A model generated the notes under the pieces. The model was not told the origin of the DNA. It searched no databases and worked only from the letters and a program-made list of their open reading frames with translations. A DNA stretch of 64,000 nt from positions 608,001 to 672,000 of the forward strand of contig OY969926.1 of NCBI GenBank assembly GCA_963704645.1, given 5' to 3'. Positions 41,491 to 56,376 of this stretch are shown here, one piece after another (position 1 is the first letter of the stretch; the number at the start of each line of letters is the position of its first letter). The DNA comes from an uncultured bacterium (GTDB lineage Bacteria > Patescibacteriota > JACMRA01). Position numbers and translations under genes: made by a program.

Positions 41491-41520
41491 AACCCTGAAC
41501 TTGTTTCAGGGTCTAAGTGT
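41491..41520 (-). repeat. REP-like palindrome, family A, copy 3
   Basis: Reverse complement acacttagaccctgaaacaagttcagggtt. Confidence 0.85.
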
Positions 41521-41650
41521 GGAAAACAGATATTATAGTTTTCTGGAAAGAGTTTTCTCTAATCTGGCTATATTTGTTTAAAAATAGACTTTACTTTATC
41601 TAAGTTGAAATAAACTTGCTGAAAAATAAACTAAAACATTAACTACTTTC

Positions 41651-41998
41651 ATGACTAAAAACTTGAACATTTGCTTATATTCTTTCCTCTCTGTCTTAGG
41701 GTTTATTGTACCAAATTACATTGTTTTTCAAACTATTATAAAATATGGAACTTACGACTTTGCAAAATTATTTTCCGATATGAACTACAGTTTGTATACT
41801 CAATTTATTGGCGCAGATTTAGGTATAGCAGCCCTTGTTTTTATTGTCTTTTACATTTTAGAAACTAGAAAAAATAAAATTAAATACGCCTGGTTAAGTT
41901 TGCTAGGATGCTTTCTTGTAGGTTTTAGCTTTGGCTTTCCACTATTTTTGTTAATTAGGGAAGTTAGTTTGGGTAAGGGTAAGGGAGGAGCTTTATAG
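41651..41998 (+). CDS. DUF2834-like small membrane protein
   Basis: LG..VP.Y...D..I.A..F...E......VG.SFG.PLFL..RE. Confidence 0.7.
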   Translation: MTKNLNICLYSFLSVLGFIVPNYIVFQTIIKYGTYDFAKLFSDMNYSLYTQFIGADLGIAALVFIVFYILETRKNKIKYAWLSLLGCFLVGFSFGFPLFLLIREVSLGKGKGGAL

Positions 41999-42000
41999 TT

Positions 42001-42048
42001 TTTGGGCAATAAAAAAGCACCCAAACCGTAGAATTAGGTTGGGGCTTT
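42001..42048 (-). repeat. Cassette junction R0 (terminator half only)
   Basis: tttgggcaataaaaaagcaccc plus bulged hairpin. Confidence 0.85.
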
Positions 42049-42054
42049 AAGGTT

Positions 42055-42561
42055 TTATCCAAATTTGAGTCTAATTACGGGTGTAACCCATTTTTCGCTC
42101 CAGTACCAACCAGATTGCGATCGGCACAAAATATTATTGTAACGATTCCTGAAGAAGATTCCATTTGCAGGTTCGTCTTCATGTATGGTTGTTTTTGGAA
42201 ACGAAACAGCCCTTCGTAATTTACACTCAGGCTCAACTTCAATAAATTCAAGTTCTTCACCTTGATTTAACAACCAATTTGTGAAAGGCCCTATTCCATT
42301 GTTTTCAAGTCCGAGAAGCTCCAAAATCTTGTTTTGATCAGAGCTGTTTAAGTCTTCAAAACGCACTTCGCCATTAGAATCTTCTGACCACACAACTTGA
42401 ATTTCTTCAGCATTTGGGTCAAGGCAAAGTTGATGCTCATTATACTGCTCGCCTGGAACATTCGGCTTCCAGTATGGTATAGCACCGCACTGAAAATAAA
42501 TTTGTTTTAAGCAAGTCACTTTATTTTTCGCGACAGGCTGACCTTCGATTGGTTTAATCAA
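42055..42561 (-). CDS. Cassette gene 1, unknown ~175-aa paralogue family (start probably TTG 42561 after AAGGAG)
   Basis: IEGQPV...LC...W...F.DL...QNKIL.LLG...LEF...LCR...W. Confidence 0.75.
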   Translation of the reverse strand: MIKPIEGQPVAKNKVTCLKQIYFQCGAIPYWKPNVPGEQYNEHQLCLDPNAEEIQVVWSEDSNGEVRFEDLNSSDQNKILELLGLENNGIGPFTNWLLNQGEELEFIEVEPECKLRRAVSFPKTTIHEDEPANGIFFRNRYNNILCRSQSGWYWSEKWVTPVIRLKFG

Positions 42562-42610
42562 AATCTTTTCTCCTTCCAAAAATATAAATGTTGTTTTGAT
42601 TAAGCTAGTC

Positions 42611-42701
42611 TAATCTTCAAAAGCAAAGCATAAAAATTGGGGTTGGGCAAGGGTTTTGGGCAGTAAAAAAGCACCACATCATAGAATAGATGGGTACTTT
42701 T
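42611..42701 (-). repeat. Cassette junction R1 (terminator + promoter)
   Basis: gcataaaaattggggttgggcaagggttttgggcagtaaaaaagcacc plus hairpin. Confidence 0.9.
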
Positions 42702-42704
42702 GAT

Positions 42705-43253
42705 TTAAACACAATTTATATCTTTTACTTCAATAATACTAGGACTTTTTTTAGACATGAAAACAAAATTTTGAATAGTTGGAGTTATCAACAGATCTGT
42801 CTTCCAAGATAAAAAGTAGTCCGTCCAGCCTGTAAACCCTATATACTGTCTACGGTCTGGTTTAGAAATTATTCTCTCAACCCTGGTTTCAGACATTAGA
42901 GTTGGAAACTCATTTACAACTTCTCTTACGACTGCTTCTCCAGTGAGAATTTTCACAAATAGTGAATGGACAGGAATATCAAGAAGATTTAAAACCTTAT
43001 TTTTTCCATCATCCGAAAGGTTGTTGAAATGTGTCGAATTTTGTTCGGTATTAACACAATCTAATTTAGACCATGCAATTTCGCCTGACTCAGCTTCAAT
43101 ACACAAGGAGTATTTAACTTGGGTAGAAACATTGTACTCTGGGTGAATTGAACTTTCTTCACTGCCAAAACAAATAAACAACAAAGAATTTTGTTTATCA
43201 TCATTTTCAATAAAAACAGGTAAACCGTTTTGATAATTAACTTCATACCCCAT
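42705..43253 (-). CDS. Cassette gene 2, same family (start ATG 43253 after AGGAG)
   Basis: GLPV...LFICFG...LC...W...FNNL...NKVLNLL. Confidence 0.75.
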   Translation of the reverse strand: MGYEVNYQNGLPVFIENDDKQNSLLFICFGSEESSIHPEYNVSTQVKYSLCIEAESGEIAWSKLDCVNTEQNSTHFNNLSDDGKNKVLNLLDIPVHSLFVKILTGEAVVREVVNEFPTLMSETRVERIISKPDRRQYIGFTGWTDYFLSWKTDLLITPTIQNFVFMSKKSPSIIEVKDINCV

Positions 43254-43293
43254 TATCGATCTCCTAATTAATTTTGCAAGCCGTATATACATT

Positions 43294-43367
43294 ACATAAA
43301 AATTGGGTTTTGGCAAGGGGCTTTGGGCAATAAAAAAGCACCTCACCATTAAAATTGGATTGGTGCT
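43294..43367 (-). repeat. Cassette junction R2
   Basis: acataaaaattgggttttggcaaggggctttgggcaataaaaaagcacc plus hairpin. Confidence 0.9.
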
Positions 43368-43396
43368 TAAACTTTTTGCCTAAAAAGCGTGCTTGC

Positions 43397-43987
43397 TTAT
43401 TTCCTTAAAACCAATCCCAGATCTGTGATATCTGCTCTTTGGTTAAAAGCAAAAGCTAAAGCTGGTTCGGCTTTTATTTCTGCAAATGCCACACTTTTTT
43501 GTCCTTTTTGTATAAAGTCACTTGTTCCCAATCCTCTGCCCTTGCTATCTACAAGTAGCAATACAGTTGAGGGAATTGGTTCAGCTGTTTCTTCAGGAAT
43601 TTCCAGCCAGTAAATGTTAGCTTTTCTGGTGCGTGGAATGCTGAGTACATCTTTAGTATCTAAGGTAAAACCGCCGATATACTTGTGTTCACCAGTACTT
43701 TCAAAGTATAAAACCTTGAAGTTGTTTTCCGTTAAGGTGGATGCAATTACTACAGAACCAAACTTTCTTTTGTGTAGTGAAAAATATTCTACACCTTTGT
43801 ATTCTTCCGCAATAAGAAAAGTATCCTGATTGTTTTCTGACTTGATACTCAATGTGTTTTGAATATGCTGAATCTGTGCATTGAGTGATGTGGCTTTAAA
43901 ACCAAAAAACTCTTGAACGGGGTGCAAGCTTAGAGTAATTGCTAAAATTACTGCTACAAAAAATAACTTCCAAAAATTCTTCGGCAT
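43397..43987 (-). CDS. Cassette gene 3, exported hypothetical protein (ATG after GGAGGT)
   Basis: N-terminal signal/TM; strong SD. Confidence 0.7.
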   Translation of the reverse strand: MPKNFWKLFFVAVILAITLSLHPVQEFFGFKATSLNAQIQHIQNTLSIKSENNQDTFLIAEEYKGVEYFSLHKRKFGSVVIASTLTENNFKVLYFESTGEHKYIGGFTLDTKDVLSIPRTRKANIYWLEIPEETAEPIPSTVLLLVDSKGRGLGTSDFIQKGQKSVAFAEIKAEPALAFAFNQRADITDLGLVLRK

Positions 43988-44068
43988 GCTAGAAACCTCC
44001 AATAGTAAATTTTTTCAAAAAAACTAGCTTTTTGTTTATTACACAAAATTGTTTGTAAGGCAAGTGGT

Positions 44069-45207
44069 TGTACCCGTTCACTACATATGATACTTAGGAT
44101 GGTATTGTTGTAGGTATTTCATTGGTGGTATAAATTGTCCAATATCTCTTTTTAAACCCAGATGTGGTCTTTGGTTATTGTAGAAGTCTAGGTACATGAT
44201 TAATTTTAGATTAAAAGCTTGTATATCATCTCTTAGTATCCATAGATTATAATTAGCAAACTCTTCTTCCACACTTCTATTGAATCTTTCTATGTAAGCA
44301 TTCATTTTAGGAGATTTAGGATAGTTCCAGAAATGAGTAATATCTTTAAATTTTAACAGTTCATCAAAGTTCTTATGATTTTCTTGTCCATTGTCTGTCT
44401 GAACTCTTTTAATCTGGTAAGGGAATACATCTTGCATTCTTAAGAAGAAGTCTTTTGTACTATTACTACTTAATGTTTTGTAAGCATATACGAAAGAATA
44501 TCTACTAACTAGATCTACAGCACAGATTAAATATCTTTTTACTCCATTAAGATAAAAGGTTATTGCGTCTAATTGAATTAGATCTCCTGGGCTATTAGGC
44601 TGGTATTCTTTTCTTCTGGTTTTAACTTGCTTCCTAGGTTTTAGTAGTCTTTGTTTAATACTTCCTGTTCTACCGTCTAAATAGACTTGCTTTGAGTATT
44701 TGTAGACTGGTATTATTCTTTGATCTTTAAAAGTAGATATTATTCTGCCGATAGTTGAAATTGAAATAGTTTTTAGTGTTTTACTTGTTTCTTTTAGATT
44801 TTGTTCTGCACAGTAATCATCTAACAATACTTTAAGTTTGTCTTTACCTAGATTAGGATATTGCAATCTAGTTTGTTGAATAAACTCAAGTATTCTCCCT
44901 TGTACATTTGACTGTCTAAATTTATTAGGTCTTTTGCTTTTATCCTTTAAATCGTATTTGTTACCAGCTCCATAATTAAGTTCACAACTTTTTCTCCATT
45001 TCTTCCTCCACCTAATTAAAGTTATTCTGGAAAGTTTACGATTTGAATCTAGAGATAATGCTTCTAATGTAGAATTAATACCATGCTTAAATGAGTATTC
45101 AATTATTTTAAATTTATCTTCCAAAGTGTAAGACATGATCATATGATAGTAGATTTAGGATTATTAATCTACCACCCTTTGGTATCATATGTGTTTGGAC
45201 TTGTTCA
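44069..45207 (-). mobile_element. IS481-like insertion sequence inside junction R3
   Basis: Imperfect terminal IRs (tg...acatatgatac), direct repeat gtggt at 44064-44068 and 45208-45212, single rve transposase. Confidence 0.88.
44081..45142 (-). CDS. IS481-family (rve integrase core) transposase
   Basis: PGDLIQLD, VDLVSR, QTDNG, PKMNAYIERFNRS..EE, YNNQRPH. Confidence 0.92.
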   Translation of the reverse strand: MIMSYTLEDKFKIIEYSFKHGINSTLEALSLDSNRKLSRITLIRWRKKWRKSCELNYGAGNKYDLKDKSKRPNKFRQSNVQGRILEFIQQTRLQYPNLGKDKLKVLLDDYCAEQNLKETSKTLKTISISTIGRIISTFKDQRIIPVYKYSKQVYLDGRTGSIKQRLLKPRKQVKTRRKEYQPNSPGDLIQLDAITFYLNGVKRYLICAVDLVSRYSFVYAYKTLSSNSTKDFFLRMQDVFPYQIKRVQTDNGQENHKNFDELLKFKDITHFWNYPKSPKMNAYIERFNRSVEEEFANYNLWILRDDIQAFNLKLIMYLDFYNNQRPHLGLKRDIGQFIPPMKYLQQYHPKYHM

Positions 45208-45212
45208 GTGGT

Positions 45213-45265
45213 ATTGTTTTAGGGCAATAAAAAAGCACCGCTCCTTAAGTTAGGTTTACGGTGCA
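45213..45265 (-). repeat. Cassette junction R3, terminator half (promoter half at 44041-44064)
   Basis: ttttagggcaataaaaaagcaccg plus hairpin; reconstitutes with 44041-44068 when the IS is removed. Confidence 0.85.
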
Positions 45266-45299
45266 TTACTATGTGTTGAATTAAATTGAGGAAAAAGAT

Positions 45300-45809
45300 C
45301 TACCCCATATTCTCAACACGACTAATGGTATAATCTTTAGCAATATGGTAAGGCAAAAACTCCCATACATCTGTGGCTTTATACCGGCAGAGAAGTTTGT
45401 CTGGTTTTCCTTTTTTAATCGATCGGATTTGAATTGGGTTGTTCATTTCGTTACTTACAAAACTGCCAACACGCGTTGGTTCATTGCAATGCATCGAAAG
45501 TTCTAAACCTTTTCCTGTTTTAAGGAATTCAACAATTGGTTGGTATTGCCACATTCCAACAGAATCTAAAACATTTTCTTGAGTGCTGCAATCTAAAGTC
45601 CGAAATATTAGTTGCGTTTGAGGTACGTGGTGTTTGTTAATCCAAACTAACTCTCTGTTAGTTCTGCACAAAACCATTGTTTCGCCAACCTCAAGCGGTA
45701 TCCAGGTGAGTAAAAATTGCATATTTGAATTTCCACCAAACACCAAAACCTCGTCAGCAGTGTTCTGCTCGTCAACAGGTTGACCTTCAATAGTTTTTCG
45801 TATAGGCAT
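45300..45809 (-). CDS. Cassette gene 4, same family (ATG 45809 after GGAG)
   Basis: IEGQPV...VFG...LCR...W...F.TL...QENVL..VG...G.GLEL...LLCR...W. Confidence 0.78.
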   Translation of the reverse strand: MPIRKTIEGQPVDEQNTADEVLVFGGNSNMQFLLTWIPLEVGETMVLCRTNRELVWINKHHVPQTQLIFRTLDCSTQENVLDSVGMWQYQPIVEFLKTGKGLELSMHCNEPTRVGSFVSNEMNNPIQIRSIKKGKPDKLLCRYKATDVWEFLPYHIAKDYTISRVENMG

Positions 45810-45855
45810 AGCCGTCTCCACTGTTCCAAAATAAAAAATTACAATTAAGTTTCCC

Positions 45856-45947
45856 TAATCTTTCAAAGAAAAGCATAGAAATTGGCTTTAGGCAAGAAAG
45901 TGTTGCAATAAAAAAGCACCGTTCCTGAAAGGCAGGTTTACGGCGCT
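45856..45947 (-). repeat. Cassette junction R4
   Basis: gcatagaaattggctttaggcaag...gcaataaaaaagcaccg plus hairpin. Confidence 0.9.
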
Positions 45948-46001
45948 GAATTTGATTTTAAATTTGATGAAAATGAAGAAATTAGTTTTGAAAGCTAATT
46001 G

Positions 46002-46526
46002 TTAATTGTCACTAACATTCCAAATTTGTCCTGGGTCGTGGGCATAAAATTGCCATTTGTTAGTTTTATAGAGTCGACAAAGCCATTCTGGTCCAAGATT
46101 TGTGGTTCTATACACAATTGGGTAAGTTACTGCCTCATGGTCATTTTTTGGTCTGGTCCCTGCTTTGTGCAAATCATTACCTTGCAATGCTTCATCTGAA
46201 AATTCCAAACCATTTCCATTCACTAAATAGTGAAAAAATAATTCGCTTCCTCCAAGTTTGGACACAATTTCATCTTGCGATTGTTTTCCAAGCTCAGATA
46301 TGTGCAAACAGCTGTTTTCGGTTTCTCGTGAAAGTTCGTCTACACTTACCCAGCCAAAGTTGACCAGGTTTCCATCCAAAACCCTACACAGAAACATAGG
46401 TGTATCTTGTAGTGGAATCTTCCACATTGCAATAATCGGTTTAGTTGCATCTCCAAAACAAATTAGAGTAGCATTTTCACCAGCACCAGAAATTACTAGC
46501 TGTTCTTCCACTAGTTTTGTTTTCAT
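46002..46526 (-). CDS. Cassette gene 5, same family
   Basis: EQLV...LICFG...LCR...W...L...QDEIV..LG...G.GLEF...WLCR...W. Confidence 0.78.
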   Translation of the reverse strand: MKTKLVEEQLVISGAGENATLICFGDATKPIIAMWKIPLQDTPMFLCRVLDGNLVNFGWVSVDELSRETENSCLHISELGKQSQDEIVSKLGGSELFFHYLVNGNGLEFSDEALQGNDLHKAGTRPKNDHEAVTYPIVYRTTNLGPEWLCRLYKTNKWQFYAHDPGQIWNVSDN

Positions 46527-46578
46527 CTTCTTTTTCCCCTTTTTAAATTGTAAATTGATTTGCGGTTAAGTTTTCCTC

Positions 46579-46658
46579 AATCTTTTAAATTAGAGCATAG
46601 AAATTAAGGTTGTGCAAGGGTTATAGTCCAATAAAAAACCCTCTGTGTTGCAGAAGGT
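46579..46658 (-). repeat. Cassette junction R5
   Basis: gcatagaaattaaggttgtgcaaggg...caataaaaaaccc plus hairpin; minus strand reads TTGCAC-17-TCTAAT. Confidence 0.85.
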
Positions 46659-46692
46659 AGTGATTTATTTTAACCTATAATTTCTTTAAATA

Positions 46693-47208
46693 TTACATTA
46701 TAGTTGGTTCTACTTTTTTATTGTAGAATATATAAAATAATCCTAAATAAATTAGAGATGTAGCTATGCAAATCTCATTGGCATAAACAGTGGCGTAATT
46801 AAAACCTCCTGGCCACAATCCAAAGAAGTTAAAATTAGAAAGTCCAGCAAATATTAATATTAAAAGACTTGCACCGCTCTGTAAATAGGCATACCCCGTC
46901 TTTAAGTCTGTTAAATAAATTAGCAACTCTGCTAAGCTAACTGCTGACGAAATTGTCATTGATAGTGCCATGAAATAAAATAAACCTTGTGGGCTTAATA
47001 AATTGTAAGCACAGGTAGCGAAAATACCTAAGAAAAACAAGCTTACACTTTTCATGCCATTGTACTTTCCGCTGACGAAAAAATGATGAGTACAATATAT
47101 GTTTACTAATATGAAGGAAGCTACGCAGAACCATGAAATTGGCGATGTGCTTAGTACTATTAGCCAAAGATTATTTAGTTGTGCTGAATAGTTTAAACCA
47201 ACTGTCAT
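46693..47208 (-). CDS. Cassette gene 6, multi-TM membrane protein
   Basis: About five hydrophobic segments; ATG 47208 preceded by AGGA. Confidence 0.65.
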   Translation of the reverse strand: MTVGLNYSAQLNNLWLIVLSTSPISWFCVASFILVNIYCTHHFFVSGKYNGMKSVSLFFLGIFATCAYNLLSPQGLFYFMALSMTISSAVSLAELLIYLTDLKTGYAYLQSGASLLILIFAGLSNFNFFGLWPGGFNYATVYANEICIATSLIYLGLFYIFYNKKVEPTIM

Positions 47209-47369
47209 TTGTTTTGTCCTAAAATAGGTTAACTTCCTTTTTAAATCATAGAAAAGGGCTAATGTCAAAAATCTATTTCGTTTAATTAAATAACTAAAAA
47301 CAGCTTTATGAAACTTTGTTAGTTAATTAGAATTATCTTAATTATTTGCACAAGATTCTAGTAATAATA

Positions 47370-47445
47370 TTAAAAATTATACATGTGCAAGGGTTTTTGG
47401 ACAATAAAAAAAGCACCCTAACCATCGAACTAGGTTGGGTGTTTT
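47370..47445 (-). repeat. Cassette junction R6
   Basis: taaaaattatacatgtgcaagggtttttggacaataaaaaaagcaccc plus hairpin. Confidence 0.88.
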
Positions 47446-47452
47446 CTGGAGC

Positions 47453-47677
47453 TTAGTCCATTCCAATGAAATCTTTAACTCTCTGTGTCATTGCGTGATC
47501 AAGACTGGTTAGTTCGATTTCACCATCAACCTTTGCTGCTTCGCAATGAAACACAAGTTGACTTTCAGAACTGACTGATACTACAGTTCCAGCAGTAAGT
47601 GAAACACGTTCTCCACCTACTAGAACTGCATTTACAGTTTCTGTCATTCCAATATTTACTGCTTCTATAACTTGCAT
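47453..47677 (-). CDS. Cassette gene 7, 74-aa hypothetical protein
   Basis: ORF with GGAG SD, bounded by junctions R6 and R7. Confidence 0.65.
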   Translation of the reverse strand: MQVIEAVNIGMTETVNAVLVGGERVSLTAGTVVSVSSESQLVFHCEAAKVDGEIELTSLDHAMTQRVKDFIGMD

Positions 47678-47737
47678 AATAAACTTCTCTCCAACGTAAA
47701 TGTGTATGATGGTATTATACCGATCCTTGTAAGATAA

Positions 47738-47793
47738 ACAGAAAAGTTTAAACTAGGCAAGTAACTGAATAAACAAAGGTAATAAAAACCCTT
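47738..47793 (-). repeat. Cassette junction R7 (promoter half, degenerate terminator part)
   Basis: acagaaaagtttaaactaggcaag...taataaaaaccc. Confidence 0.6.
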
Positions 47794-47838
47794 TAATACT
47801 TGACTAAACTTACCACTAAAATCACTTTTAGGTTAATT

Positions 47839-50328
47839 ATGCCTTTGCCTTCTGCGTACAATCCTAAGGAATATGAATACCAAATTTACCAGGAATGGTT
47901 GAAGTTAAAGCTTGGATCTCCAGAGGTGCAGGAGGAAATTCAGGCTACCCCGAAACCTTTGGTTTCACCCCTTACCAGGGGTACTGGTGAGCTGGATTAT
48001 AACGATGTTGGTAATGCCAACAATGGCGGTGTGGTCGCCTCATCTACGGATACATACTCTGTTGTGGTGCCTCCGCCAAATCTGACTGGGGATTTGCATA
48101 TGGGACATGCTTTTGAGCATTATTTAATGGATACTTTGGTTCGAATTGCCCGTCAGGAAGGTAAAACAACTTTATATTACCCAGGGGTTGATCACGCTGG
48201 AATTCAGCTGGAAGGTGTTATAAATAAGTTGATAAATAAAGGTGAGTTTGATGAGCAAATTAAACAATTAGATAATCTTACTAGTAACCAAACCAATGCT
48301 AAAGTTTCTGACTTTTTTAATTTTGATACTGCAGATAGAGCTAACTTTTTAAAACAAAATTTTCCTGAAACTTGGCTACAATTTGCTTGGTCAAAAGTGC
48401 GTGTTTGGCGTGGTAACCAACTAAAACAAGCTGAAAAACTTGGCGATTCACCCGATTTTGACCGTTTACTTTTCACCCTAGATCCAAGAGCTGTGGATAT
48501 GGTAAACTATGCTTTTATTAAGTACTGGCAAGACGGTTTAATTCACAAAGGTTCCTATTTAATTAACTGGTCGGTAGCTTTGCAAACTGCTTTGTCTGAC
48601 GTTCCCGAAGATATTTCCCACGAAGAAAGGAAGGATCCGTTTGTTACTTTTGAGTATGTTAATCAAGGGTCTGTTGTTACATGGGTAGAAAACTCATCAA
48701 AGTTTAATGATGACAATAAAATTCGCATAATGAACAATGCAATAATGAGAATTAAGGTGGCAACAGTTAGGCCTGAAACTGTATTTGGGGATGTTGCTTT
48801 GGCTGTAAACAAGAATATCTTTAGAAATAAATTGCTAAGTTATGAAGACTCATCTTTTGGCAGATTAACTTCTCAAGATGTTGAAAATATTATCTATGAT
48901 ATTGAAAATGGTTATATAAAAATTAAATACATGATCAAAGGCTTGATCTCTAATATTAAATTAATTTTAGGAGAAGACGACGAAGTTGATCCAAACTTTG
49001 GAACGGGGGCTTTAAAAATTACGCCTGCTTCAGATATTGTAGATTATAATATTGCTGTTAAACATGGAATTTCCCATTTACCTCAGTCTGTTGGTAGAGA
49101 TGGAAAACTTACAGAAATCTGCGGCGAGTTTGCAGGTTTAACTGTAGAGCATGGTAGAATGGCAGTTATTAAAAGGTTAATTGAAGATGGTCATGTACCA
49201 ACAGTTGAAGGTTTTGAAGAAAACAGGGAAAGTGTGCAGAATAAACCTTCCGTAGAAAAATTATCTGACCCTGAATTTAGAAGTTTAAGCCTTGAAAAAC
49301 AGAAAGAATATTTGCAGAAAAACTATCCTCAATATCAAGTTGATTGGAATTATGTTCACAATGTTACAATTTGCGAACGCAGCAAGACAGTTGTAGAACC
49401 ATTAATTAGTGAAGAGTTTTTTGTAGATTATTACGCCAAGTTTAAATTTAACCCAAAGATTAATTCAAAAAATCAAAACACCAAAGTACCCCTGGTAAGG
49501 GGTGAAACCGTAGGTTTCGGGGTAGCAATTGGCCAGGAAACAAGCCTACAACAATTGGCTATTGCTGGAATTCATAAGACAAATTTCTTTCCTGAAGATT
49601 ATAAGGAAAGGGCTTTGAATTATTTTGAGACTATTAAAAATTGGTGTATTTCCCGTGATTTAATTTGGGGACATAATATGCCGGTTTGGTATAATTTAGA
49701 TGTGAATCCAGAGCGCAGGTTTTATTCGTTTAAGGAAATACAAACTCAAAATGGAAATGGAGACCAGGAGGTCTCCGCTACGGATCGATTCAAAATTCAG
49801 GTTGAAAAACCTGCTGAGCCTGGAAATTGGGTTCAAGAAACTAAAATTTTAGACACTTGGTTTAGTTCAACACTGTGGCCGCTTACAACGCTTAACTTTT
49901 TAGATTTTGCCAATGGTAAACAAGGAACTGATTTTGAAAAGTTTTACCCAACCCAAACTATGACTACTGCTAAGGAAATTTTCTATGCCTGGATTGTACG
50001 TATGATTATGACTGGAATGTACTTTGCTGGACAAACTCCGTTTGAAAATTATTTGGCTCACGCTTGGGTGTTAGACGATAAAGGTAAAAAAATGAGTAAA
50101 AGTTTAGGAAATGTAATTGATGTTGCCGATCAAATTGAAAAATATTCATCCGATGCTGTTCGTTTGGGTATGTTAGAAAAAAGTATTCCTGGAAGAAATA
50201 TTAGATTCGGTGGAAAATTAGGTGATGCAGCCAGCGAAAAATATCGTAATTTTGGGAATAAATTATGGAACGTAGCTAGGTTTTTGGAAGGGAAGGAAGG
50301 GGATATTGTAGGCAATACTATTATCTAG
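47839..50328 (+). CDS. valS: Valyl-tRNA synthetase, N-terminal/catalytic part (split gene)
   Basis: PPPNLTGDLHMGHA, DHAGI, ATVRPET, WCISR, DTWFSS, KMSKS; ends just after NKLWNVARF. Confidence 0.93.
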   Translation: MPLPSAYNPKEYEYQIYQEWLKLKLGSPEVQEEIQATPKPLVSPLTRGTGELDYNDVGNANNGGVVASSTDTYSVVVPPPNLTGDLHMGHAFEHYLMDTLVRIARQEGKTTLYYPGVDHAGIQLEGVINKLINKGEFDEQIKQLDNLTSNQTNAKVSDFFNFDTADRANFLKQNFPETWLQFAWSKVRVWRGNQLKQAEKLGDSPDFDRLLFTLDPRAVDMVNYAFIKYWQDGLIHKGSYLINWSVALQTALSDVPEDISHEERKDPFVTFEYVNQGSVVTWVENSSKFNDDNKIRIMNNAIMRIKVATVRPETVFGDVALAVNKNIFRNKLLSYEDSSFGRLTSQDVENIIYDIENGYIKIKYMIKGLISNIKLILGEDDEVDPNFGTGALKITPASDIVDYNIAVKHGISHLPQSVGRDGKLTEICGEFAGLTVEHGRMAVIKRLIEDGHVPTVEGFEENRESVQNKPSVEKLSDPEFRSLSLEKQKEYLQKNYPQYQVDWNYVHNVTICERSKTVVEPLISEEFFVDYYAKFKFNPKINSKNQNTKVPLVRGETVGFGVAIGQETSLQQLAIAGIHKTNFFPEDYKERALNYFETIKNWCISRDLIWGHNMPVWYNLDVNPERRFYSFKEIQTQNGNGDQEVSATDRFKIQVEKPAEPGNWVQETKILDTWFSSTLWPLTTLNFLDFANGKQGTDFEKFYPTQTMTTAKEIFYAWIVRMIMTGMYFAGQTPFENYLAHAWVLDDKGKKMSKSLGNVIDVADQIEKYSSDAVRLGMLEKSIPGRNIRFGGKLGDAASEKYRNFGNKLWNVARFLEGKEGDIVGNTII
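47945..47985 (+). repeat. REP-like family B copy, in frame inside valS
   Basis: ctaccccgaaacctttggtttcaccccttaccaggggtact (encodes TPKPLVSPLTRGT). Confidence 0.88.
49485..49525 (-). repeat. REP-like family B copy, inverted, in frame inside valS
   Basis: agtacccctggtaaggggtgaaaccgtaggtttcggggtag (encodes VPLVRGETVGFGV). Confidence 0.88.
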
Positions 50329-55569: not shown

Positions 55570-56376
55570 ATGAATTCTAATTTGCTATCTGCTCCTTCTA
55601 TATGGATTTTGAAGAAATTTATTGTTCTTCAGGCTAATTTAAAAAACAGCATTGCTGAATATGACATTGCCCATGCCATAGATGATTTGTATAAATTTTT
55701 ATGGAACGATTATGCCGATTGGTATGTGGAATATTTGAAGACAGATGCAACAGATTTGCTTTTTGCTAAAAACCTTTATCGACAATATGTGGTTCTGCTT
55801 TCTCCATATTCACCGTTTGAAACAGAAGCATTATGGTCAGACTTTTTTCAGGAAAAGAATTTAATAGCATTTGAAACTGTAGACGAAAATTGGCCTATAG
55901 AAATTCTTAGTAATCAAGATAATTTTGAAGCAAAGTTTGCGGAGTTTGAAAGTGTAGTAAATTTCATTCAAAGCATTCGTTCCCAAAAAGGTTTGTTTGG
56001 TTTAGACCCTGCTACCCAAATTGAAGTTTATTCTGTCTCGGAAATTCTTTCTAAATACCAAGACTTAATTTTTAAAATGGCTAAGGCAAAAATTTTAAAT
56101 GAAGAAAAAATGGCTTTGTACAATGTAAAATTAGACGCTTTTGAGTATGGTTTAGATATAAATGTACTTGTTAAAGATAAACCAGCTGAAATTGCCAGAA
56201 CCGAAAAGATTATCTTAGATTTGCAAAAACAAGCTTCTCAATTACAAATTCAATTAAACAATCAAGGCTTTTTAGTTTCAGCAGAAGAGGAAGTAATTTT
56301 AGAGAAAAAAGATCAAATCAAAAAACGCACTGAGGAAATAAAAGTTCAACAGGACAAGCTGCAATTTTTGAAGTAG
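55570..56376 (+). CDS. valS: Valyl-tRNA synthetase, C-terminal part (anticodon-binding + coiled-coil arm)
   Basis: WIL...LYKFLWNDYADWYVEYLK, LLSPYSPFETEALW, EIAR...L.N..F...A..EVI..K. Confidence 0.88.
   Translation: MNSNLLSAPSIWILKKFIVLQANLKNSIAEYDIAHAIDDLYKFLWNDYADWYVEYLKTDATDLLFAKNLYRQYVVLLSPYSPFETEALWSDFFQEKNLIAFETVDENWPIEILSNQDNFEAKFAEFESVVNFIQSIRSQKGLFGLDPATQIEVYSVSEILSKYQDLIFKMAKAKILNEEKMALYNVKLDAFEYGLDINVLVKDKPAEIARTEKIILDLQKQASQLQIQLNNQGFLVSAEEEVILEKKDQIKKRTEEIKVQQDKLQFLK

What the first reader, a model, noticed from the sequence alone, without database searches (positions are those of the whole stretch)
42001..47793. Array of self-contained gene cassettes joined by a conserved terminator+promoter junction repeat
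Seen: seven short minus-strand genes are each separated by a related 60-90 bp junction (R0-R7). On the coding strand it reads: bulged hairpin, GGTGCTTTTTTATTGCCC-like terminator tail, short spacer, CTTGC(C/A)-N13-T(A/G/C)TG, then a -10-like hexamer. The N13 spacing holds in R1-R5 and R7; R0 has only the terminator half. Each gene is thus a promoter-SD-ORF-terminator unit. No attC RYYYAAC/GTTRRRY boxes and no tyrosine integrase are in the window. Known analogues are integron arrays and the PeSL promoter-stem-loop cassettes of T4-type phages. Inference: an integrase-less expression-cassette array in which the regulatory junction serves as the homology for gene gain, loss and shuffling; I do not know of this being described on a CPR-like chromosome.
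Basis: partly seen in the sequence, partly recalled or inferred. Interest (0 to 1): 0.85.

Follow-up and report, generated by a model that had tools for sequence, protein, structure and literature searches.

The report
Gene array with repeated terminator-promoter junctions
A small-genome bacterium carries a row of short, fast-evolving genes of unknown function, each with its own predicted start and stop signals fused into a repeated junction, and close relatives hold different genes between the same junctions, much as known from T4-like phages.

Summary
Between a DUF2834 gene and valS lie seven short minus-strand genes plus one IS481-like insertion. They are separated by a related junction: a bulged GC-rich hairpin, a GGTGCTTTTTTATTGCCC tail, then CTTGCC-N13-TRTG. 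Both motifs are far above chance, and the full junction occurs nowhere else in the 1.27-Mb genome.

Four of the seven genes are ~23%-identical paralogues of a genus-restricted orphan family. Its predicted structure is confident but matches no known fold. The array therefore grew largely by tandem duplication of a promoter-gene-terminator unit, not by capture of unrelated cassettes. The promoter half follows this organism's ordinary promoter geometry.

The junction is also better conserved between species (86-88%) than the housekeeping genes beside it. Two ~95%-identical relatives carry different, non-homologous ORFs between the same junction elements, with only two cassettes against seven here. 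A second array elsewhere in the genome has the same build and the same junction-bounded copy-number difference (4 versus 1).

No integrase or attC sites are present. The closest analogue is the PeSL terminator/promoter motif of T4-like phages. Recombination at the junctions is inferred from end products only; no circles or deletion reads were seen. The proteins' function is unknown.

The parts
41998..42054 (-). J0: terminator half only (hairpin + GGTGCTTTTTTATTGCCC), between convergent g1 and the DUF2834 gene
   Evidence: profile hit E=9.7e-5 and 2.5e-3
42055..42564 (-). g1, orphan-family member (169 aa from the TTG at 42564; ORF open from 42579)
   Evidence: Orthologue in L026 58-59% aa; start inferred from the L026 alignment
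42565..42704 (-). J1: full junction (hairpin, T-run tail, CTTGCC-N13-TATG, conserved leader, SD)
   Evidence: E=1.9e-24 with the foreign-only profile
42705..43253 (-). g2, most divergent orphan-family member (182 aa)
   Evidence: (P0003)
43254..43396 (-). J2: full junction core, without the conserved leader
43397..43987 (-). g3, non-family gene with a hydrophobic N-terminus (196 aa)
   Evidence: one homologue, 66% identity; not found in G001
43988..44068 (-). J3b: promoter half of junction J3 (CTTGCC-N13-TGTG-TAATAA), cut off from its terminator half by the IS
   Evidence: (E=0.027)
44069..45207 (-). IS481-like insertion sequence, 1,139 bp, TG...CA ends, 5-bp target duplication ACCAC, transposase ORF 44081-45142
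   Evidence: (4 identical copies in the genome). Ends confirmed by contigs from other runs
45208..45299 (-). J3a: terminator half of junction J3
45300..45809 (-). g4, orphan-family member (169 aa)
   Evidence: (P0002; P0005 is 54% identical)
45810..46001 (-). J4: full junction with conserved leader
46002..46526 (-). g5, orphan-family member (174 aa); the protein modelled
   Evidence: (pLDDT 87.8)
46527..46692 (-). J5: full junction with conserved leader; most divergent tail (GGGTTTTTTATTGGAC)
46693..47208 (-). g6, non-family predicted membrane protein (171 aa)
   Evidence: A 31% homologue in G001 sits at a junction-free locus
47209..47452 (-). J6: junction with hairpin, tail and CTTGCA box but no TVTG at N13
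   Evidence: E=2.6e-4
47453..47677 (-). g7, 74-aa ORF; relation to the family unresolved
   Evidence: not found in G001
47678..47799 (-). J7: promoter half only (CTTGCC-N13-TCTG at 47739-47761), in the divergent region shared with valS

Best explanation
This is a hypervariable, genus-specific tandem array of monocistronic units on a bacterial chromosome.

Each unit has a sigma-70-type promoter in the organism's usual geometry: a CTTGCC -35 box, 13 nt, a TRTG motif, then a weak T-rich -10. Family genes also have a conserved ~60-nt leader. Then come an SD, a short ORF and a bulged GC-rich hairpin with a T-run. The 3' half of one unit's terminator and the next unit's promoter are fused into one ~55-110-nt junction.

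The array arose mainly by tandem duplication of such a unit. Four of the seven ORFs are old paralogues of one orphan family. The proteins have diverged to ~23% identity while the junction has been held by purifying selection on its regulatory role. Because the junction copies are direct repeats, they bound the later gains, losses and replacements of ORFs, by unequal or homologous recombination or by deletion between copies.

Shown:
- the repeat and its locus specificity;
- the paralogy;
- higher conservation of the junction than of the flanking genes;
- different ORFs between conserved junction elements in close relatives;
- a second array with the same behaviour.

Inferred:
- promoter and terminator activity;
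- that recombination happens in the junctions;
- that the T-run/AAAA stretch upstream of -35 acts like an UP element (consensus recalled, not tested);
- that the proteins serve a strain-variable conflict or host-interaction role.
For: - Repeat statistics. The non-circular profile gives 7 of 7 hits at E<0.01 inside the array.
- Hairpins fold.
- Paralogy: g4-g5 E=1.3e-5 over 174 aa, g1-g2 E=5e-4. The profile search of 1.84 billion representatives returned 10 proteins. Four are the window's own, five are relatives and one is an FN3-repeat false positive. The tree shows paralogue clades that each include sequences from other organisms.
- Restriction to the genus: 2 of 26 family genomes and 2 of 401 phylum genomes carry the protein family.
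- Junction conservation: 85% between G000 and G001 over 107 nt, against 72-80% for NUDIX, DUF2834 and valS. No other intergenic DNA aligned. J1 is 86-88% identical to the junctions of L026 and G001.
- ORF turnover: L026 and G001 are 95.6% identical over 5,743 nt, starting exactly at the J0 hairpin, and 93-95% over most of valS. The small gene and the family gene between show no blastn similarity and belong to different clades.
- The junction type is positional. G001's junction precedes a g4/g5-clade gene but is 88% identical to J1, against 73% and 71% to J4 and J5 (Fisher p=0.016 and 0.007).
- A non-family gene lives in the array: g6 has only a 31% homologue in G001, at a junction-free locus.
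- Second array at genome 809.3-811.5 kb: four ORFs, ~130-nt junctions 74-89% identical, same hairpin/T-run and TTTGCA-N13-TGTG build. G001 has one cassette and one junction that is K1-like at its 5' side and K4-like at its 3' side.
Against: - No transcript data exist. No RNA run holds the locus, so promoter and terminator function are predictions. The -10 hexamers after TRTG (TTTGCT, TTTTCT, TCTAAT) lack the usual A at position 2.
- The simple consensus scans did not single the junctions out: 21 promoter-like sites against 23.8 expected, and 1 junction hairpin caught.
- Only three genomes of the genus were available, and two are MAG or metagenome assemblies. G001's array is at a contig end, so 'two cassettes' there rests on reading a 23-nt inverted repeat as an IS that broke the assembly.
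- No junction-to-junction joints or circles were seen, although the runs hold the locus only as low-depth contigs.
- Differential loss, gain and replacement cannot be told apart.
- Exactly identical stretches between junction copies are short, about 21 nt at most. That is little for RecA-dependent exchange (requirement recalled).
- g3, g6 and g7 show no supported homology to the family, so their origin in the array is unexplained.
- The leader has no supported RNA structure: -2.7 kcal/mol, 1 of 18 pairs covarying.
Confidence: 0.6

Rival explanations
1. Plain duplicate-and-diverge gene family. The junction is repeated only because it was copied with the gene, and it is conserved only because it is a shared regulatory site, possibly an operator for one regulator. 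It plays no special part in recombination. Differences between relatives come from ordinary deletions or from allelic replacement through the housekeeping flanks.
For: - Four of seven genes are paralogues.
- The promoter geometry is generic.
- The leader holds an invariant AGATTAG-N4/5-CTTAATC inverted repeat that could be an operator.
- Junction copies within one genome are less alike (56-74%) than junctions across species (86-88%), so there is no sign of within-genome homogenisation.
- No joints were seen.
Against: - Breakpoints in two independent loci fall at junction elements.
- The junction type does not follow the clade of the gene behind it.
- Both flanks of L026 and G001 are 93-96% identical right up to the array, so there is no large imported tract.
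- Non-family genes g3 and g6 sit between the same junctions.
Confidence: 0.25
2. A true PeSL-like mobile-cassette system on a chromosome. ORF plus junction modules are excised as circles by recombination between flanking junctions. They are re-inserted at other junctions or moved between strains, so the array captures unrelated genes.
For: - The architecture and evolutionary signature match those described for PeSLs.
- Unrelated genes g3 and g6 are framed by the junction.
- Close relatives hold different ORFs between the junctions.
- A second array has its own junction family.
Against: - There is no circle or joint evidence.
- All family members found are confined to one genus.
- The junction gave 0 hits in viral contigs, and among 185,579 species representatives only the congener was hit.
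- Each junction family stays at its own locus.
Confidence: 0.1
3. A degenerate integron or a recombinase-associated array (rAID-like) whose recombinase lies elsewhere or was lost.
For: It is an array of short same-strand genes with repetitive intergenic DNA, the feature that the rAID-1 preprint calls reminiscent of integrons.
Against: - The only tyrosine recombinase is about 230 kb away.
- No attC-like boxes occur in any junction: one match at chance level, inside the IS.
- Every cassette has its own promoter-like site.
- No immunity-family, defence or phage hits were found.
Confidence: 0.03

Closest known systems
PeSL (promoter-early stem-loop) composite terminator/promoter motifs of T4-like phages (Arbiol et al. 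2010, PMC2839356: abstract and sections 13 and 16 read; Comeau et al. 2014, PMC4122927: abstract read)
   Same: A conserved ~100-bp intergenic motif joins a sigma-70-like promoter to a stem-loop terminator. It flanks ORFans of unknown function. Insertions, deletions and replacements between close relatives map to the motifs. Each swapped ORF brings its own start and stop signals.
   Different: - Here it lies on a cellular chromosome, at a fixed site between valS and DUF2834/NUDIX in three genomes.
- There are two loci with 4-8 copies each and a locus-specific junction, against about 50 dispersed PeSLs per phage.
- The stem-loop always lies upstream of the promoter. PeSLs have five layouts, mostly within or overlapping the promoter.
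- Most ORFs here are paralogues.
- Promoter and terminator activity and mini-circles were shown experimentally for PeSLs, not here.
- Supplementary figures of these papers could not be seen.
Tandem arrays of paralogous genes evolving by birth and death through unequal crossing-over (general principle; recalled examples are the mycoplasma vlp/vsp/vpma surface-protein arrays with conserved 5' regions)
   Same: Adjacent fast-diverging paralogues have conserved upstream regions, and copy number differs between relatives.
   Different: - The proteins here have no signal peptide or lipobox by eye.
- Each gene has its own promoter and terminator rather than sharing one switchable promoter.
- Non-family genes are embedded in the array.
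- No site-specific recombinase is present.
rAID-1 recombinase-associated orphan-immunity arrays of Bacteroidales (Ross et al., bioRxiv 10.1101/471110: passages read)
   Same: Arrays of small, rapidly diverging genes with repetitive intergenic sequences and variable content.
   Different: There is no XerD-family recombinase at the array, no match to known immunity families and no sign of a mobile-element context.
Integron cassette arrays
   Same: A one-directional row of short cassettes separated by a repeated structured element.
   Different: There is no IntI, no attC boxes and no common Pc promoter. Cassettes here carry their own promoter-like sites.

Membership tests
PeSL (T4-like phage) | One conserved intergenic motif combining a sigma-70-like promoter with a stem-loop terminator | tested here: met
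   By sequence and folding only. Activity was not measured.
PeSL (T4-like phage) | Located in hyperplastic regions of a T4-like phage genome | tested here: not met
   Chromosomal site conserved in three bacterial genomes. Junction pattern gave 0 hits in viral contigs. No supported PHROG hits.
PeSL (T4-like phage) | Flanks ORFans; differences between close relatives map to the motifs | tested here: met
   Orphan family. Breakpoints at junction elements in two loci.
PeSL (T4-like phage) | Recombination between motifs yields mini-circles | not testable with these tools
   Only low-depth contigs of public runs hold the locus, and no joints were listed.
Integron | IntI tyrosine recombinase next to the array | tested here: not met
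   The single PF00589 match is at genome 883.7-884.4 kb; the array is at 650-656 kb.
Integron | attC sites with RYYYAAC / GTTRRRY boxes between cassettes | tested here: not met
   One palindromic match, inside the IS and in none of the junctions; shuffles give a mean of 1.3. No attC covariance model was available.
Integron | Promoterless cassettes read from a common Pc | tested here: not met
   6 of 7 genes are preceded by CTTGCM-N13-TVTG. This is a prediction only.
rAID-1 | XerD-family recombinase heading the array | tested here: not met
rAID-1 | Genes related to interbacterial immunity families | tested here: inconclusive
   No Pfam, NCBIfam or PADLOC family at the thresholds used. Fast-evolving immunity proteins can escape such searches.
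Tandem paralogue array | Neighbouring genes are homologous | tested here: met
   g1, g2, g4 and g5 are homologous. g3 and g6 are not. g7 is unresolved.
IS481 family (the inserted element) | Single DDE (rve) transposase, terminal inverted repeats, short target duplication | tested here: met
   rve and rve_3 domains. Best NCBIfam model is IS481 at E=1.3e-37, but below its curated cut-off. TG...CA ends and 5-bp duplications at all 4 copies.

The most novel reading that the evidence does not exclude
Reduced-genome bacteria of this genus use locus-specific composite terminator-promoter junctions as portable recombination modules, a chromosomal counterpart of phage PeSL shuffling. ORFan cassettes are excised, lost, duplicated and exchanged between strains at the junctions. 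This gives each strain its own set of a fast-evolving orphan protein family with a new fold, which acts in conflict with hosts, phages or competitors.
Probability: 0.2. Interest if true: 0.75.

Novelty: new variant of a known kind. Interest (0 to 1): 0.5.

Why it matters
If junction-bounded turnover is real, it gives a simple route by which very small genomes can keep a few loci highly plastic while the rest stays compact. It needs no recombinase and no mobile element. It would also extend a mechanism so far described for T4-like phages to cellular chromosomes. In the searchable library the term PeSLs occurs in 12 papers, none with a title about a bacterial chromosome.

The finding also flags a genus-restricted orphan protein family with a confident model and no detectable fold relative. 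It offers compact natural terminator-promoter parts from an uncultured lineage.

If the junctions turn out to play no part in recombination, what remains is an ordinary tandem gene family with a well-conserved regulatory region.

Tried and rejected
**Searches that found nothing**
- Fold and family searches for the orphan family found nothing. Foldseek on PDB gave a best E of 0.17. VIA-align wide gave one chain at Z 2.3. BFVD gave a best E of 0.091. The PDB sequence profile gave E 0.6. The ESM Atlas gave no usable hit. Pfam, PADLOC, PHROGs and NCBIfam gave nothing supported.
- Rfam on 41500-48200 returned only a sub-threshold RAGATH-23 match at E 0.15.
- The leader RNA structure is not supported.
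- Small ORFs (g7, G001-small, L026-small) as N-terminal-half family members: hhalign probabilities 6%, 0.2%, 10% and 1.6%. This stays unresolved.

**Ideas dropped**
- Origin or terminus location. The genome-wide skew extremes are at 240 and 890 kb and dnaA is at 857 kb, so the array is at neither.
- Import of a large foreign tract between L026 and G001. Both flanks are 93-96% identical. The 86.6% average for valS came from indels and its 5' end.

**Comparisons that gave no information**
- Synteny in other genera. The DUF2834 gene is not next to valS or NUDIX in the four loci fetched, so they are uninformative.
- The loose junction pattern with 2 mismatches in 41 relatives returned noise.
- Public runs list no RNA holder. 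The four DNA runs laid gave no joints. They held only low-depth identical fragments, plus IS and 41-nt-repeat copies in other contexts.
- My first pairwise identities for coding DNA were inflated by cheap gaps and are not used. tblastn, blastn and MAFFT figures are used instead.
- Hairpin sequence types hint at mosaicism, but the differences are small and I do not lean on them.

Full report
**What is there.** The window is bases 608,001-672,000 of a single-contig, 1.27-Mb, 33% GC genome. Between a convergent DUF2834 gene (41651-41998, Pfam E=7e-25) and the divergently transcribed valS lie seven short minus-strand ORFs (g1-g7) and one transposase ORF. It consists of a bulged GC-rich hairpin and the tail GGTGCTTTTTTATTGCCC. 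About 7-10 nt further on comes CTTGCC, then 13 nt, then T(A/G/C)TG.

- J1, J2, J4, J5 and J6 are full junctions.
- J0 has only the terminator half, and J7 only the promoter half.
- J3 is split by a 1,139-bp element with TG...CA ends and a 5-bp target duplication. That element has four identical copies in the genome and an rve-type transposase closest to the IS481 model. Its ends, 44069 and 45207, are independently marked by contigs from other sequencing runs.

**More than chance, and locus-specific.** The tail motif gives 5 matches in the window against 0.11 expected. The N13 motif gives 7 against 0.58, with 6 in the array. Genome-wide, the strict tail occurs 3 times, all here. The combined loose pattern occurs 9 times, 5 of them here. 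A profile built from the array finds nothing else at E<0.05, but that test is circular. A profile built only from the junctions of two other genomes finds 7 sites at E<0.01. All 7 are in the array (J1 1.9e-24, J5 7e-15, J4 5e-13, J2 2e-10, J6, J0, J3a), and the next hit has E=0.068. The hairpins fold with z-scores of -1.9 to -4.8. A crude consensus scan caught only one of them and found no excess of canonical promoters.

**The promoter half is ordinary; the rest is not.** tRNA genes of this genome share a strong cTTGACAaa box. Several unrelated genes carry CTTGCa-N13-T(A/G)TG-CTTATAT. So the N13 spacing is this organism's normal -35 / TRTG / -10 geometry (the TRTG '-16' motif is recalled from Gram-positive promoters). 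Three things are special to the array:
- the conserved sequence around that geometry, ATTGCCCAAAACCC upstream of -35 and AACCCCAATTTT in the spacer;
- the fixed fusion to the preceding terminator;
- a conserved ~60-nt leader in front of the family genes, GCTTT.GAAGATTAG..AACTTAATC...CAATTTACATTTT..AGGAG.

That leader has no supported RNA fold and no Rfam match. Its invariant inverted repeat could be a DNA operator, but that is speculation. The T-run at about -55 to -47 and the AAAA at about -42 to -39 sit where UP elements sit (consensus recalled). So one stretch of T may serve both as terminator tail and as upstream promoter element. This is inference.

**The genes.** g1, g2, g4 and g5 (169-182 aa) are weak but consistent paralogues. 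BLASTP gives g4-g5 E=1.3e-5 over the full length at 24% identity, and g1-g2 E=5e-4.

- g5 finds only itself in the word-indexed 5.8-billion-protein set.
- A profile of the four, scored against 1.84 billion representatives, finds 10 proteins. Four are the window's own. Five are relatives of 168-191 aa. One is an FN3-repeat protein that I regard as a false positive.
- The family occurs in 2 of 26 genomes of the taxonomic family and 2 of 401 of the phylum sampled. Both carriers are in this genus.
- The tree groups g1 with L026 and P0006, and g4 with P0005. g5 groups loosely with P0007 and P0009. g2 groups with P0010, though both of those are long branches. The paralogues therefore predate the splits between these organisms.
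- An AlphaFold2 model of g5 with nine sequences is confident (pLDDT 87.8, pTM 0.86). No library gave a fold match, and no family library gave a name.
- g3, with a hydrophobic N-terminus, has one 66% homologue. g6, a predicted membrane protein, has none in that set, but it has a 31% homologue in the congener at an ordinary, junction-free locus.
- g7 and the small ORFs of the relatives are not supported as family members.

**Comparison with relatives: the decisive part.** G001 belongs to the same genus. Its record title reads 'Bdellovibrionales bacterium' MAG. It has NUDIX and DUF2834 followed by one family gene (P0007) and a small ORF, joined by the same junction. Against G000 the junction is 85% identical over 107 nt. 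NUDIX, DUF2834 and valS are 72-80% identical, and no other non-coding DNA aligned. G001's contig ends just beyond. The two contig ends carry a 23-nt sequence in inverted orientation, which I read as a multicopy IS that broke the assembly.

A 40-kb metagenome contig, L026, has valS, an 86-aa ORF, the junction, a g1 orthologue (58-59% aa), the terminator half, DUF2834 and NUDIX. That is two cassettes where G000 has seven.

L026 and G001 are very close. They are 95.6% identical over 5,743 nt on the DUF2834 side, starting exactly at the J0 hairpin. They are 93-95% identical over most of valS and 95.5% further on. Yet their small ORFs and family genes show no nucleotide similarity, and the family genes fall in different clades. 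Only the junction between them aligns, at 86%.

The junction type also does not follow the gene behind it. G001's junction precedes a g4/g5-clade gene but is 88% identical to J1 (which precedes g1), against 73% and 71% to J4 and J5 (p=0.016 and 0.007). Junctions across species (86-88%) are more alike than junction copies within G000 (56-74%). Conservation therefore reflects constraint rather than within-genome homogenisation.

**A second array.** A genome self-comparison showed about 11% of the genome in long repeats. It also showed another local repeat family at genome 809.3-811.5 kb, outside the window. There, four small plus-strand ORFs (103-128 aa, two of them 33% paralogues) are each followed by a ~130-nt junction that is 74-89% identical between copies. 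That junction has a hairpin, a T-run and, further on, TTTGCA-N13-TGTG. In G001 the locus has only the first ORF (88% nt identity) and a single junction. That junction matches K1 on its 5' side and K4 on its 3' side, then runs into the downstream flank. This is the product expected of a K1 x K4 deletion, or the ancestral state before expansion. Either way the event is bounded by junction repeats.

**Interpretation.** The simplest account is a tandemly duplicated promoter-gene-terminator unit. Its proteins evolve fast while its regulatory junction is held constant. The repeated junctions then bound later deletions, duplications and replacements. It changes the emphasis: most cassettes are relatives of one another, nothing shows capture of foreign genes, and the recombination itself has not been observed. 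The rivals are a plain gene family in which the junctions play no recombinational part, a fully PeSL-like mobile-cassette system, and a degenerate integron or rAID-like array. The last is close to excluded.

**Comparison with the literature.** PeSLs are described as composite sigma-70 promoter plus stem-loop terminator motifs conserved over about 100 bp. They lie next to ORFans in the hyperplastic regions of T4-like phages, and indels and replacements between 96%-identical phages map to them. Promoter, terminator and mini-circle evidence was obtained experimentally (PMC2839356, abstract and sections 13 and 16; PMC4122927, abstract). rAID-1 arrays have a XerD-family recombinase and repetitive intergenic sequences (bioRxiv 10.1101/471110, passages). 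In the library searched, 'PeSLs' occurs in 12 papers. By their titles none concerns a bacterial chromosome, and I did not read those other papers.

**Limits.**
- There are three genomes, two of them metagenome-derived, and no expression data.
- Function is unknown.
- Taxonomy is unsettled. L30 and COX1 were not found in the closed genome.

**Verdict.** This is a new variant of a known kind, of moderate interest.

Noticed in passing
L040:2793-5000 (genome 809,292-811,500; outside the window): A second array: four small plus-strand ORFs, each followed by a ~130-nt conserved junction (hairpin, T-run, a conserved ~90-nt stretch, then TTTGCA-N13-TGTG). G001 has one cassette and a K1/K4-type junction.
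   Followed up: yes
window 47944-47985: A 41-nt repeat sits inside the N-terminal coding part of valS. It gave 11 blastn hits in this genome and about 20 matches in G001, and it lies in many contexts in metagenome contigs. It looks like a miniature mobile repeat that can sit in frame.
   Followed up: partly
window 47839-50328 and 55570-56376: valS appears split. The anticodon-binding domain and C-terminal arm (Pfam Anticodon_1, Val_tRNA-synt_C) lie in a separate 268-aa ORF about 5 kb downstream. A YgjP-like peptidase gene and three unannotated ORFs lie between. The likely valS start is the ATG at 47839, and the TTGACT at 47800 looks like its -35 box.
   Followed up: no
window 44069-45207 and genome 464, 817 and 865 kb: There are four identical copies of the IS481-like element. 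In at least three of them the target lies just upstream of a -35-like box, which suggests a preference for promoter-proximal sites.
   Followed up: partly
whole genome: About 137 kb (11%) of this 1.27-Mb genome lies in long repeats. This includes a second rve-type element with 8 copies and a repeated CTTGCAGATTAGGTATTAGTATG word. That is an unusually high IS load for so small a genome.
   Followed up: no
L016 tail and L012:80-105 (G001 contig ends): A 23-nt sequence occurs in inverted orientation at the ends of contigs C12 and C26, between valS and the array. It is probably the ends of a multicopy element that broke the assembly.
   Followed up: partly
genome-wide tRNA upstream regions: tRNA promoters share a very strong cTTGACAaa -35 box but have weak, T-rich -10 regions. 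The information profile downstream of CTTGACA is faint.
   Followed up: partly
genome 1,070,427-1,072,180 (outside the window): A third local repeat family has 3 copies of 77-137 nt at 80-84% identity. One copy lies inside an ORF. It was not examined further.
   Followed up: no
whole genome / L027 record title: The labels conflict. The same-genus MAG is titled 'Bdellovibrionales bacterium', yet ribosomal protein L30 and cytochrome oxidase subunit 1 were not found in this closed 1.27-Mb genome.
   Followed up: partly
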